A stretch of DNA of 64,000 bases from the human T2T-CHM13v2.0 reference genome, Homo sapiens, in NCBI RefSeq assembly GCF_009914755.1, contig NC_060929.1; one strand, 5' to 3'. Below, piece after piece: positions 13,975-19,983 of the stretch (its first letter is position 1; each line of letters opens with the position of its first letter). Made by a program: the position numbers and the translations under genes. Under the pieces are notes generated by a model. The model ran no database searches. It worked only from the letters and a program-made list of their open reading frames with translations, and was not told the DNA's origin.

Positions 13975-14465
13975 GTTCATAGAAGAAACATTGAACCTTA
14001 CCTAAGCCCTGTGATCATGGAAAACGATCGGAGATTAAGAAACCCCCTCAAACTTTGGCGTTCTGGCAAAGGGCTTACTGCAAAGAACCACCCTTCCGTT
14101 TAGGACACAGATAAGACTCATGGCTGCCCTCTACTTACCTGTGACATGACTACCCACAGACCCTCCAAATTCCCGTTCTTTGTCTCATAAATGATTAGCC
14201 AAATTGCCTGTATTCCACTGATGAACTGGAGCAAGATACTTGTTAATCACACTTTGACTAGGATTCTCTTCTTCCCCCAGGCCTCTGAACTTTGTCCCAG
14301 GCTCAACTTGAAGCAGCATGCAGCCCCTCCTAAGAGTAGGCTGCCCTGAGGTAAAATCTTAACTTCTGATCGATCACACCGCCCTTTCATCCCACTTGCC
14401 TATGGTTCATTTTAGCCTTGTTTACACCTCTGTAGAAAAGAAAACCCCCTTTTTGCCTAACTCTT
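13975..14465 (+). mobile_element. ERV1 solo LTR (MER67/MER31-like), 5' part, interrupted by L1HS
   Basis: CTTACCTAAGCCCTGTG...CCCTCCAAATTCCCGTTCTTTGTCTCATAAATGATTAGC; continues at 19982. Confidence 0.65.
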
Positions 14466-14727
14466 TTTTTTTTCTTTTTTATTTTTTTTAATTTTTTTTT
14501 AATTTTTTTTTTTATTTTTTTTATTATACTCTAAGTTTTAGGGTACATGTGCACATTGTGCAGGTTAGTTACATATGTATACATGTGCCATGCTGGTGCG
14601 CTGCACCCACTAACGTGTCATCTAGCATTAGGTATATCTCCCAATGCTATCCCTCCCCCCTCCCCCGACCCCACCACAGTCCCCAGAGTGTGATATTCCC
14701 CTTCCTGTGTCCATGTGATCTCATTGT

Positions 14728-16599
14728 TCAATTCCCACCTATGAGTGAGAATATGCGGTGTTTGGTTTTTTGTTCTTGCGATAGTTTACTGAGAATGATG
14801 GTTTCCAATTTCATCCATGTCCCTACAAAGGACATGAACTCATCATTTTTTATGGCTGCATAGTATTCCATGGTGTATATGTGCCACATTTTCTTAATCC
14901 AGCCTATCATTGTTGGACATTTGGGTTGGTTCCAAGTCTTTGCTATTGTGAATAGTGCCGCAATAAACATACGTGTGCATGTGTCTTTATAGCAGCATGA
15001 TTTATAGTCCTTTGGGTATATACCCAGTAATGGGATGGCTGGGTCAAATGGTATTTCTAGTTCTAGATCCCTGAGGAATCGCCACACTGACTTCCACAAT
15101 GGTTGAACTAGTTTACAGTCCCACCAACAGTGTAAAAGTGTTCCTATTTCTCCACATCCTCTCCAGCACCTGTTGTTTCCTGACTTTTTAATGATTGCCA
15201 TTCTAACTGGTGTGAGATGATATCTCATAGTGGTTTTGATTTGCATTTCTCTGATGGCCAGTGATGATGAGCATTTCTTCATGTGTTTTTTGGCTGCATA
15301 AATGTCTTCTTTTGAGAAGTGTCTGTTCATGTCCTTCGCCCACTTTTTGATGGGGTTGTTTGTTTTTTTCTTGTAAATTTGTTTGAGTTCATTGTAGATT
15401 CTGGATATTAGCCCTTTGTCAGATGAGTAGGTTGCGAAAATTTTCTCCCATGTTGTAGGTTGCCTGTTCACTCTGATGGTAGTTTCTTTTTCTGTGCAGA
15501 AGCTCTTGAGTTTAATTAGATCCCATTTGTCAATTTTGGCTTTTGTTGCCATTGCTTTTGGTGTTTTGGACATGAAGTCCTTGCCCACGCCTATGTCCTG
15601 AATGGTAATGCCTAGGTTTTCTTCTAGGGTTTTTATGGTTTTAGGTCTAACGTTTAAATCTTTAACCCATCTTGAATTGATTTTTGTATAAGGTGTAAGG
15701 AAGGGATCCAGTTTCAGCTTTCTACATACGGCTAGCCAGTTTTCCCAGCACCATTTATTAAATAGGGAATCCTTTCCCCATTGCTTGTTTTTCTCAGGTT
15801 TGTCAAAGATCAGATAGTTGTAGACATGCGGCATTATTTCTGAGGGCTCTGTTCTGTTCCATTGATCTATATCTCTGTTTTGGTACCAGTACCATGCTGT
15901 TTTGGTTACTGTAGCCTTGTAGTATAGTTTGAAGTCAGGTAGTGTGATGCCTCCAGCTTTGTTCTTTTGGCTTAGGATTGACTTGGCGATGCGGGCTCTT
16001 TTTTGGTTCCATATGAACTTTAAAGTAGTTTTTTCCAATTCTGTGAAGAAAGTCATTGGTAGCTTGATGGGGATGGCATTGAATCTGTAAATTACCTTGG
16101 GCAGTATGGCCATTTTCACGATATTGATTCTTCCTACCCATGAGCATGGAATGTTCTTCCATTTGTTTGTGTCCTCTTTTATTTCCTTGAGCAGTGGTTT
16201 GTAGTTCTCCTTGAAGAGGTCCTTCACATCCCTTGTAAGTTGGATTCCTAGGTATTTTATTCTCTTTGAAGCAATTGTGAATGGGAGTTCACTCATGATT
16301 TGGCTCTCTGTTTGTCTGTTGTTGGTGTATAAGAATGCTTGTGATTTTTGTACATTGATTTTGTATCCTGAGACTTTGCTGAAGTTGCTTATCAGCTTAA
16401 GGAGATTTTGGGCTGAGACGATGGGGTTGTCTAGATAAACAATCATGTCGTCTGCAAACAGGGACAATTTGACTTCCTCTTTTCCTAATTGAATACCCTT
16501 TATTTCCTTCTCCTGCCTGATTGCCCTGGCCAGAACTTCCAACACTATGTTGAATAGGAGCGGTGAGAGAGGGCATCCCTGTCTTGTGCCAGTTTTCAA
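14728..16599 (-). pseudogene. ORF2: L1 ORF2p C-terminal half (aa 653-1275: RT FADD motif, thumb, cysteine-rich CCHC); stop-free, no ATG start
   Basis: 623 codons [13 protein letters not shown]...[10 protein letters not shown]...[18 protein letters not shown]...SLIGGN; first codon is TTG. Confidence 0.95.
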
Positions 16600-17946: not shown

Positions 17947-18009
17947 AGACCATCGAGACTAGGAAGAAACTGCATCAACTAATGAGCAAAATCACCAGCT
18001 AACATCATA

Positions 18010-19983
18010 ATGACAGGATCAAATTCACACATAACAACATTAACTTTAAATATAAATGGACTAAATTCTGCAATTAAAAGACACAGACTGGCAAGTTGGA
18101 TAAAGAGTCAAGACCCATCAGTGTGCTGTATTCAGGAAACCCATCTCACGTGCAGAGACACACATAGGCTCAAAATAAAAGGATGGAGGAAGATCTACCA
18201 AGCCAATGGAAAACAAAAAAAGGCAGGGGTTGCAATCCTAGTCTCTGATAAAACAGACTTTAAACCAACAAAGATCAAAAGAGACAAAGAAGGCCATTAC
18301 ATAATGGTAAAGGGATCAATTCAACAAGAGGAGCTAACTATCCTAAATATTTATGCACCCAATACAGGAGCACCCAGATTCATAAAGCAAGTCCTGAGTG
18401 ACCTACAAAGAGACTTAGACGCCCACACATTAATAATGGGAGACTTTAACACCCCACTGTCAACATTAGACAGATCAACGAGACAGAAAGTCAACAAGGA
18501 TACCCAGGAATTGAACTCAGCTCTGCACCAAGCAGACCTAATAGACATCTACAGAACTCTCCACCCCAAATCAACAGAGTATACATTTTTTTCAGCACCA
18601 CACCACACCTATTCCAAAATTGACCACATAGTTGGAAGTAAAGCTCTCCTCAGCAAATGTAAAAGAACAGAAATTATAACAAACTATCTCTCAGACCACA
18701 GTGCAATCAAACTAGAACTCAGGATTAAGAATCTCACTCAAAGCCACTCAACTCCATGGAAACTGAACAACCTGCTCCTGAATGACTACTGGGTACATAA
18801 CGAAATGAAGGCAGAAATAAAGATGTTCTTTGAAACCAACGAGAACAAAGACACCACATACCAGAATCTCTGGGACGCATTCAAAGCAGTGTGTAGAGGG
18901 AAATTTATAGCACTAAATGCCTACAAGAGAAAGCAGGAAAGATCCAAAATTGACACCCTAACATCACAATTAAAAGAACTAGAAAAGCAAGAGCAAACAC
19001 ATTCAAAAGCTAGCAGAAGGCAAGAAATAACTAAAATCAGAGCAGAACTGAAGGAAATAGAGACACAAAAAACCCTTCAAAAAATCAATGAATCCAGGAG
19101 CTGGTTTTTTGAAAGGATCAACAAAATTGATAGACCGCTAGCAAGACTAATAAAGAAAAAAAGAGAGAAGAATCAAATAGACACAATAAAAAATGATAAA
19201 GGGGATATCACCACCAATCCCACAGAAATACAAACTACCATCAGAGAATACTACAAACACCTCTACGCACATAAACTAGAAAATCTAGAAGAAATGGATA
19301 CATTCCTCGACACATACACTCTCCCAAGACTAAACCAGGAAGAAGTTGAATCTCTGAATAGACCAATAACAGGCTCTGAAATTGTGGCAATAATCAATAG
19401 TTTACCAACCAAAAAGAGTCCAGGACCAGATGGATTCACAGCCGAATTCTACCAGAGGTACAAGGAGGAGCTGGTACCATTCCTTCTGAAACTATTCCAA
19501 TCAATAGAAAAAGAGGGAATCCTCCCTAACTCATTTTATGAGGCCAGCATCATTCTGATACCAAAGCCGGGCAGAGACACAACCAAAAAAGAGAATTTTA
19601 GACCAATATCCTTGATGAACATTGATGCAAAAATCCTCAATAAAATACTGGCAAACCGAATCCAGCAGCACATCAAAAAGCTTATCCACCATGATCAAGT
19701 GGGCTTCATCCCTGGGATGCAAGGCTGGTTCAATATACGCAAATCAATAAATGTAATCCAGCATATAAACAGAGCCAAAGACAAAAACCACATGATTATC
19801 TCAATAGATGCAGAAAAAGCCTTTGACAAAATTCAACAACCCTTCATGCTAAAAACTCTCAATAAATTAGGTATTGATGGGACGTATTTCAAAATAATAA
19901 GAGCTATCTATGACAAACCCACAGCCAATATCATACTGAATGGGCAAAAACTGGAAGCATTCCCTTTGAAAACTAACTCTTAA
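18010..19983 (+). CDS. ORF2: L1 ORF2p N-terminal half (aa 1-655 plus NS from target DNA): APE-like endonuclease, Z region, start of RT
   Basis: MTGSNSH; EN motifs TLN, IQE, GDFN, KIDH and SDH all present; ends [14 protein letters not shown] at the TSD. Confidence 0.93.

What the first reader, a model, noticed from the sequence alone, without database searches (positions are those of the whole stretch)
14457..19981. Twin-primed L1HS with a lossless split ORF2 and 14-bp inverted repeats around the flipped segment
Seen: the 3' part lies on the minus strand and the 5' part on the plus strand. The sequence TCCCTTTGAAAACT occurs at 19961-19974 and as its reverse complement at 16591-16604. Residues 1-652 plus the 623 codons of the other half sum to 1275 aa, the canonical ORF2p length, with no stop or frameshift; ORF1 is also intact. 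There are 2-bp microhomologies at both junctions (GA 16603-16604; CT 19973-19974). The empty site reads TCTT/AA, an L1 endonuclease-type site. Known: twin priming produces such inversions, with small deletions or duplications at the junction. Inference: recombination or template switching between the 14-bp repeats would flip 16605-19960 and rebuild a collinear ORF1-ORF2-polyA unit on the minus strand. That unit would still lack its own promoter, and 14 bp is short, so the event should be rare.
Basis: partly seen in the sequence, partly recalled or inferred. Interest (0 to 1): 0.8.

Follow-up and report, generated by a model that had tools for sequence, protein, structure and literature searches.

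The report
Ordinary twin-primed, 5'-inverted human L1 insertion
This is an ordinary, roughly two-million-year-old human L1 retrotransposon copy whose front part was inserted backwards by the well-known twin-priming process, and the short inverted repeat at its edges is a common by-product of that process, not a special switch.

Summary
Window 14457-19981 is one L1 insertion. It has a 9-bp target-site duplication (CTAACTCTT), a TCTT/AA nick site and a 57-nt A-rich tail. The 3' segment lies on the minus strand and the 5' segment on the plus strand.

Against full-length copies from the same genome, the plus segment is L1 nt 582-3951 and the minus segment nt 3938 to the end. The two share exactly 14 nt and nothing is missing. 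ORF2 residues 1-655 and 652-1275 are both open, and ORF1 (338 aa) is intact. Both 2-bp microhomologies are real.

Twin priming is right, and the flip geometry is right on paper. But an overlap of the two cDNAs is a known, common outcome: 44 of 106 germline 5'-inverted L1s, median 12 bp (PMC12016303).

The copy is L1HS pre-Ta (ACG diagnostic). It lacks the first 581 nt of the 5'UTR. It carries 17 private substitutions, 14 of them amino-acid changes, which looks like neutral decay. Its ORF2 is cut inside the reverse-transcriptase domain. Fourteen bp is far below the homology that efficient recombination needs, and longer imperfect inverted repeats exist inside the same element. No evidence supports re-inversion. 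Low interest; already known.

The parts
14457..14465 (.). Left copy of the target-site duplication, CTAACTCTT
   Evidence: Identical 9-mer at both ends; read
14466..14522 (-). Poly(A) tail, 57 nt: 50 A, 6 T, 1 G on the minus strand
14523..14727 (-). L1 3'UTR, carrying the ACG diagnostic of L1HS pre-Ta
   Evidence: ACG in the window and in 5 of 5 nearest copies; meaning of ACG from PMC4866827
14728..16604 (-). C-terminal part of ORF2: the last 2 nt of codon 651, codons 652-1275 and the stop at 14728-14730. Holds the FADD box at residue 700 and the Cys-rich motif. The first in-frame Met is residue 704
16591..16604 (-). Copy 1 of the 14-nt overlap (L1 nt 3938-3951), at the 5' end of the non-inverted cDNA
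16603..16604 (.). GA microhomology at the join of the two cDNAs (the inversion junction is 16604/16605)
16605..16929 (+). Remnant of the L1 5'UTR, nt 582-906. The first 581 nt are absent
16930..17949 (+). ORF1, 338 codons plus stop, intact. Has two private amino-acid changes, at codons 65 and 320
18010..19974 (+). N-terminal part of ORF2, codons 1-655: endonuclease domain, linker and the first half of the RT domain. The frame runs on into the flank for 2 codons to the stop at 19981-19983
19961..19974 (+). Copy 2 of the 14-nt overlap, at the internal priming site. The last two bases (CT) are shared with the TSD
19973..19981 (.). Right copy of the TSD, CTAACTCTT, followed by AA (19982-19983): first-strand nick site TCTT/AA

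Best explanation
A single retrotransposition event of an L1HS pre-Ta RNA, resolved by twin priming. L1 endonuclease nicked the plus strand at TCTT/AA. The T-rich 3' end primed on the poly(A) tail and copied the RNA back to nt 3938; this is the minus-strand-sense segment, 14466-16604. After the second-strand cut 9 bp away, the other 3' end (..TTAG-3') annealed inside the same RNA at the CU of nt 3950-3951. It copied from there to nt 582; this is the plus-strand-sense segment, 16605-19974. The two cDNA ends were joined at a GA microhomology. Because the first cDNA ran 12-14 nt past the second priming site, those bases are present twice in opposite orientation. That duplication is the '14-bp inverted repeat'. 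The product is a dead copy. It has no promoter and its ORF2 is cut inside the RT domain. It has since drifted neutrally. The anatomy is shown; the order of the enzymatic steps is inferred from the published twin-priming model.
For: One TSD, one A-tail and an endonuclease-type site. Two segments of opposite orientation are contiguous in L1 coordinates with a 14-nt overlap in 10 of 10 mapped full-length copies. The inverted segment abuts the TSD directly with 2 shared bases. The internal join has 2 shared bases. Neither segment has an indel against comparators that themselves lack indels. Private divergence is similar in the two segments, 11 of 3370 and 6 of 2077, as expected for one event. The junction-spanning 120-mer matches in full only at this locus, in 1 of 40 scored matches. 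The size and kind of overlap fit published series (44 of 106 germline, median 12 bp; dot plots of duplications at internal breakpoints). Private changes are 14 nonsynonymous to 3 synonymous, as expected without selection.
Against: Nothing found here argues against it. Limits: the founding paper (Ostertag and Kazazian 2001) was not held, so the model is cited from recall and from papers that cite it. The 11 comparators were chosen from the best hits and are not a random sample. Only 40 of 1550 first-look candidates were scored in the junction search, so uniqueness is not fully shown. Some private substitutions may have been inherited from the source copy instead of arising after insertion.
Confidence: 0.93

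Rival explanations
1. One reading: the 14-bp inverted repeats make 16605-19960 a re-invertible segment. Recombination or template switching between them would restore a collinear ORF1-ORF2-poly(A) unit that matters as a latent L1.
For: The geometry is right. The segments cover nt 582-3951 and 3938 to the end with no gap or indel, and both frames are open. Replication-based template switching can use very short homology (PMC2583991).
Against: No re-inverted copy was seen; only one haploid assembly could be looked at. Fourteen bp is far below the minimal efficient processing segment: cutting uninterrupted homology from 232 to 134 bp already lowered recombination 20-fold. A clean flip needs two exchanges at both arms. 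The arms are not the best inverted repeats in the element: 26 nt at 92% and 13 nt at 100% also occur. A restored unit would lack 581 nt of 5'UTR. It would also carry 12 private amino-acid changes in ORF2p and 2 in ORF1p, in a neutral pattern. About four in ten germline 5'-inverted L1s have the same kind of overlap, so the feature does not single out this locus.
Confidence: 0.02
2. Post-insertion inversion: a collinear 5'-truncated L1 (nt 582 to the end) inserted on the minus strand. Later its 5' 3.4 kb was inverted by a break-repair or replication error that also duplicated 14 nt.
For: Inversions with short inverted duplications at the ends can arise from staggered breaks or template switches (general knowledge; for the mechanisms).
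Against: One breakpoint would have to fall exactly on the L1/TSD boundary, to the base. Under twin priming this coincidence, and the CT shared between the TSD overhang and the internal L1 site, follow directly. 5' inversion is seen in 18.4% of germline L1 insertions, so the simple explanation has a high prior.
Confidence: 0.03
3. Two independent L1 insertions lying head to head, or an assembly artefact.
For: None specific.
Against: The plus-strand segment ends inside ORF2 with no A-tail or TSD of its own. The two segments meet in L1 coordinates to within 14 nt. Their private divergence is alike. They share one TSD. The 5.5-kb structure lies within unique flanks of a complete assembly.
Confidence: 0.01

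Closest known systems
Twin-primed (5'-inverted) L1 insertions with overlap (duplication) at the inversion junction
   Same: Single TSD, A-tail and endonuclease site. Non-inverted 3' cDNA plus inverted 5' cDNA. Short overlap of the two cDNAs: 14 nt here, against a published median of 12 with quartiles 4-17. Microhomology at the joins.
   Different: Nothing in kind. This copy is long (5.4 kb of L1) and still has open frames. That is usual for its subfamily: 6 of 11 full-length relatives have both ORFs open.
Retrotransposition-competent full-length L1HS
   Same: Intact 338-aa ORF1. All 1275 ORF2 codons are present. The endonuclease, FADD and Cys-rich regions are recognisable.
   Different: No first 581 nt of 5'UTR. 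ORF2 is split between strands inside the RT domain. It is pre-Ta, not Ta. About 20 of 1275 ORF2p residues differ from the solved reference protein, counted by eye; 12 of these are private.
Split ORF2p fragments that complement in trans (bipartile Alu retrotransposition assay, PMC4889948)
   Same: Two ORF2p fragments encoded on separate transcription units.
   Different: In that assay the cut lies between the endonuclease and RT domains, so each fragment keeps a whole catalytic domain (section read). Here the cut is at Pfam RVT_1 profile position 109 of 205. The C-terminal piece has no in-frame Met before residue 704, which is after the FADD box.
Truncated ORF2 loci that keep the endonuclease domain (PMC4176336; title and start of abstract seen only)
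   Same: The plus-strand unit encodes ORF1p plus an ORF2p fragment (1-655) with the whole endonuclease domain.
   Different: Those loci are full-length elements with a promoter and premature stops. This one has no promoter, and no gene is annotated in the window (hub note).

Membership tests
Twin-primed (5'-inverted) L1 insertion | 3' L1 segment with poly(A) tail abutting an endonuclease-type target site | tested here: met
   57-nt A-rich tail at 14466-14522; nick site TCTT/AA
Twin-primed (5'-inverted) L1 insertion | A more 5' L1 segment in the opposite orientation, with one TSD flanking the whole | tested here: met
   nt 582-3951 on the plus strand and nt 3938 to the end on the minus strand; CTAACTCTT at both ends
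Twin-primed (5'-inverted) L1 insertion | The two segments are adjacent in L1 coordinates, with a small deletion or duplication | tested here: met
   14-nt duplication in 10 of 10 mapped comparators; published range
Twin-primed (5'-inverted) L1 insertion | The internal priming site shows complementarity to the target overhang; the cDNA join shows microhomology | tested here: met
   CT shared by L1 and TSD at 19973-19974; GA at 16603-16604
L1HS pre-Ta subfamily | ACG (not ACA or GAG) at the diagnostic 3'UTR trinucleotide | tested here: met
   ACG in the window and in 5 of 5 nearest copies; definition from the PMC4866827 passage
Retrotransposition-competent L1 | Full 5'UTR with the internal promoter | tested here: not met
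   The L1 start lies 581 nt upstream of the equivalent point in 7 of 7 full-length copies; the window has nt 582 onward only
Retrotransposition-competent L1 | One contiguous 1275-codon ORF2 downstream of ORF1 on one strand | tested here: not met
   Codons 1-655 on the plus strand and 652-1275 on the minus strand
Retrotransposition-competent L1 | Activity in a retrotransposition assay | not testable with these tools
Inverted-repeat pair able to drive homologous inversion (NAHR) | Uninterrupted homology at or above the minimal efficient processing segment (more than 100-200 bp) | tested here: not met
   Arms are 14 bp; requirement from the PMC2583991 passage

The most novel reading that the evidence does not exclude
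Overlap-type twin-primed L1s that still have open frames could form a hidden reserve of L1 coding capacity. A rare double template switch or break repair at the short inverted arms would flip the 5' segment and give a collinear ORF1-ORF2-poly(A) unit. If transcribed from a neighbouring promoter, that unit could supply L1 proteins or even move. For this locus it would need the 14 private amino-acid changes to be tolerated and an outside promoter on the minus strand to the right of 19981. None is annotated in the window.
Probability: 0.01. Interest if true: 0.5.

Novelty: already known. Interest (0 to 1): 0.08.

Why it matters
It matters little beyond correct annotation. The locus is a clean textbook example of twin priming, with every hallmark readable to the base: nick site, TSD, tail, internal priming microhomology, cDNA overlap and join microhomology. 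It also shows that 'no base lost' follows directly from cDNA overlap, which occurs in about four of ten germline 5'-inverted L1s. If re-inversion at such short arms were ever observed, it would add a new route to L1 reactivation. Nothing here points to that.

Tried and rejected
1. Founding twin-priming paper: not held by DOI or by PMC id. I relied on later papers that cite it.

3. Two literature searches failed on term format. They were re-sent in corrected form.

4. In one search one comparator (L016) gave no output because its 5' end does not hold my start motif. It was included through a different anchor (11 of 11).

5. Idea: the L1 antisense promoter in the plus-strand 5'UTR could transcribe the minus-strand ORF2 half in sense. 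Rejected, because only nt 582-906 of the 5'UTR remain. The antisense promoter is, from recall, at about nt 400-600. The first in-frame Met is residue 704, after the FADD box.

6. Idea: the two ORF2 pieces could complement in trans, as in the bipartile Alu assay. Rejected, because the cut here is in the middle of the RT domain.

7. Idea: the mix of private substitutions points to RNA or DNA editing. Taking direction as majority base of the comparators to window base, my hand tally gives 6 A-to-G, 4 G-to-A, 3 A-to-C, 2 C-to-A, 1 T-to-C and 1 T-to-G. The sense strand is 40% A, so I do not read this as a signal.

8. I made no genome-wide survey of other overlap-type inverted L1s in this assembly. 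The genome search scores only 40 candidates per query, so published series were used instead.

9. Presence or absence of this insertion in other humans or apes could not be checked; no other human or primate assembly is on hand.
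Full report
**What is there**

None is expected by chance, and the repeat finder lists it as a perfect inverted pair.

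Stop-to-stop frames show three long open frames:
- a 660-codon frame on the minus strand (14728-16710);
- a 374-codon frame on the plus strand (16822-17946);
- a 665-codon frame on the plus strand (17986-19983).

Translation and comparison with solved structures identify them.
- The plus frame from the ATG at 18010 matches residues 1-655 of human L1 ORF2p (8uw3, 1275 aa). It then reads two flank codons and a stop.
- The minus frame matches residues 652-1275 and ends at the natural stop.
- ORF1 (16930-17946) is 338 aa, has all three L1 ORF1p Pfam domains over their full profile lengths, and matches solved ORF1p chains.
- Pfam places the break in the middle of the reverse-transcriptase domain. 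RVT_1 profile positions 1-109 lie in the plus half and 109-205 in the minus half.

**Ends of the element**

- The plus strand reads ...GC CTAACTCTT followed by a T-rich run at 14457 onward. It reads ...GAAAA CTAACTCTT AAGA... at 19973 onward.
- This gives one 9-bp target-site duplication and a first-strand nick at TCTT/AA.
- The tail is 57 nt, with 50 A on the minus strand.
- The CT at 19973-19974 belongs both to the TSD and to the L1 sequence, which continues ..AAAACT|GGCAC in the other copy.

**Mapping to full-length copies**

The window's own genome could be searched.

- The 325-nt 5'UTR remnant (16605-16929) has many identical matches.
- In 4 of 4 plus-oriented full-length copies, the bases before the match are ...AAAAAGA. 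The window has ...AAAGGGA, so GA is a true 2-bp microhomology at the inversion junction.
- In 7 of 7 copies, the L1 5' start (..GGAGGAGCCAAGATGGCC) lies about 581 nt upstream of that point. One copy has an indel.
- I fetched 11 full-length relatives and mapped the two window segments separately onto them.
  - The plus segment covers nt 582-3951 and the minus segment nt 3938 onward.
  - The overlap is 14 nt in 10 of 10 comparators mapped, shifted but equal in the three that carry upstream indels.
  - There are no gaps against comparators that themselves lack indels.
  - The 11th comparator gave no output because of my start motif.
- This shows, without building any joined sequence, that no base of nt 582 to the end is missing and that 14 nt are present twice.
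- A 120-nt probe across the junction matched in full only at this locus. That is 1 of 40 scored matches out of 1550 first-look candidates.

**Subfamily and age**

- The 3'UTR diagnostic trinucleotide is ACG in the window and in 5 of 5 nearest copies.
[quoted passage not shown] The copy is therefore pre-Ta.
- Against the 11 full-length relatives, the window copy differs from all 11 at 17 sites: 11 of 3370 in the plus segment and 6 of 2077 in the minus segment. It has no private indel.
- That is 0.31% of 5433 nt. With a neutral rate of 0.1-0.2% per million years (recalled), this gives an upper bound of roughly 1.5-3 million years. This is an inference.
- All 17 sites lie in coding sequence; 14 change the amino acid and 3 do not. 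That is what unconstrained decay gives.
- Open frames are not remarkable at this age. ORF1 is open in 11 of 11 relatives and ORF2 in 6 of 11.
- About 20 of 1275 ORF2p residues differ from the solved reference, counted by eye. Twelve of these are private.

**How it arose**

Every feature fits twin priming.

1. The plus-strand 3' end at TCTT primed on the tail and copied back to nt 3938.
2. The second-strand 3' end (..TTAG-3') annealed at the CU of nt 3950-3951 and copied to nt 582.
3. The two cDNA ends were joined at GA.
4. The first cDNA ran 12-14 nt beyond the second priming site, which gives the duplicated 14 nt in opposite orientation.

The anatomy is shown by the calls above. The order of events is taken from the published model.

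Published series make this ordinary.
- 5' inversion is seen in 18.4% of germline L1 insertions.
- The two cDNAs overlap in 44 of 106 germline cases.
- The overlap has a median of 12 bp and quartiles of 4 and 17 (PMC12016303, passages).
- In 1,019 people there are 1,047 polymorphic 5'-inverted L1s, and both deletions and duplications are shown at the internal breakpoint (PMC12350158, passages and section 18).

By coordinates, a flip of 16605-19960 would indeed put nt 3937 next to nt 3938. Nothing else supports it.

- Fourteen bp is far below the minimal efficient processing segment. A drop from 232 to 134 bp of uninterrupted homology already lowers recombination 20-fold (PMC2583991, passage).
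- Replication-based switching uses 2-5 bp anywhere, so the arms are not a preferred site. A clean flip also needs two switches.
- Longer imperfect inverted repeats exist between the two halves, such as 26 nt at 92%.
- The restored unit would have no promoter and 14 private amino-acid changes.
- As it stands, the C-terminal half has no in-frame Met before residue 704, after the FADD box at residue 700. The N-terminal unit has no promoter either.
- The published trans-complementation of ORF2p fragments cuts between the domains, not inside the RT domain (PMC4889948, section 28).

**Verdict**

Twin priming is confirmed. The claim that this is unusual or functionally meaningful is not supported. 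This is a known kind of structure and a typical member of it.

Noticed in passing
window 20470-20499: A short (GT)n microsatellite about 490 bp to the right of the insertion (direct repeat family D5).
   Followed up: no
window 16605-16710, minus strand: The minus-strand ORF2 frame stays open for 36 more codons across the inversion junction into the antisense of the 5'UTR remnant. The stop-to-stop frame is therefore 660 codons, not 624. There is no Met in this extension.
   Followed up: yes
window 15666-15825 (L1 sense positions 780, 876 and 939 of the minus-strand segment): Three of the six private substitutions of the minus-strand segment are A-to-G changes within 160 nt. Each turns Ile into Val. 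The numbers are too few to tell from chance on a strand that is 40% A.
   Followed up: partly
loci L015-L025 (own genome): Among 11 full-length pre-Ta-like relatives, 6 have both ORFs open and 5 have a shortened ORF2; two also show a 360-codon ORF. Three of the 11 (L019, L023, L025) map with shifted L1 coordinates, which points to indels in or near the 5'UTR.
   Followed up: partly
window 19974-19981 and L1 nt 3950-3954: Beyond the two Watson-Crick pairs, the second-strand primer end could pair with the L1 RNA over five consecutive positions if G-T wobble is allowed. This is my reading and was not tested.
   Followed up: no
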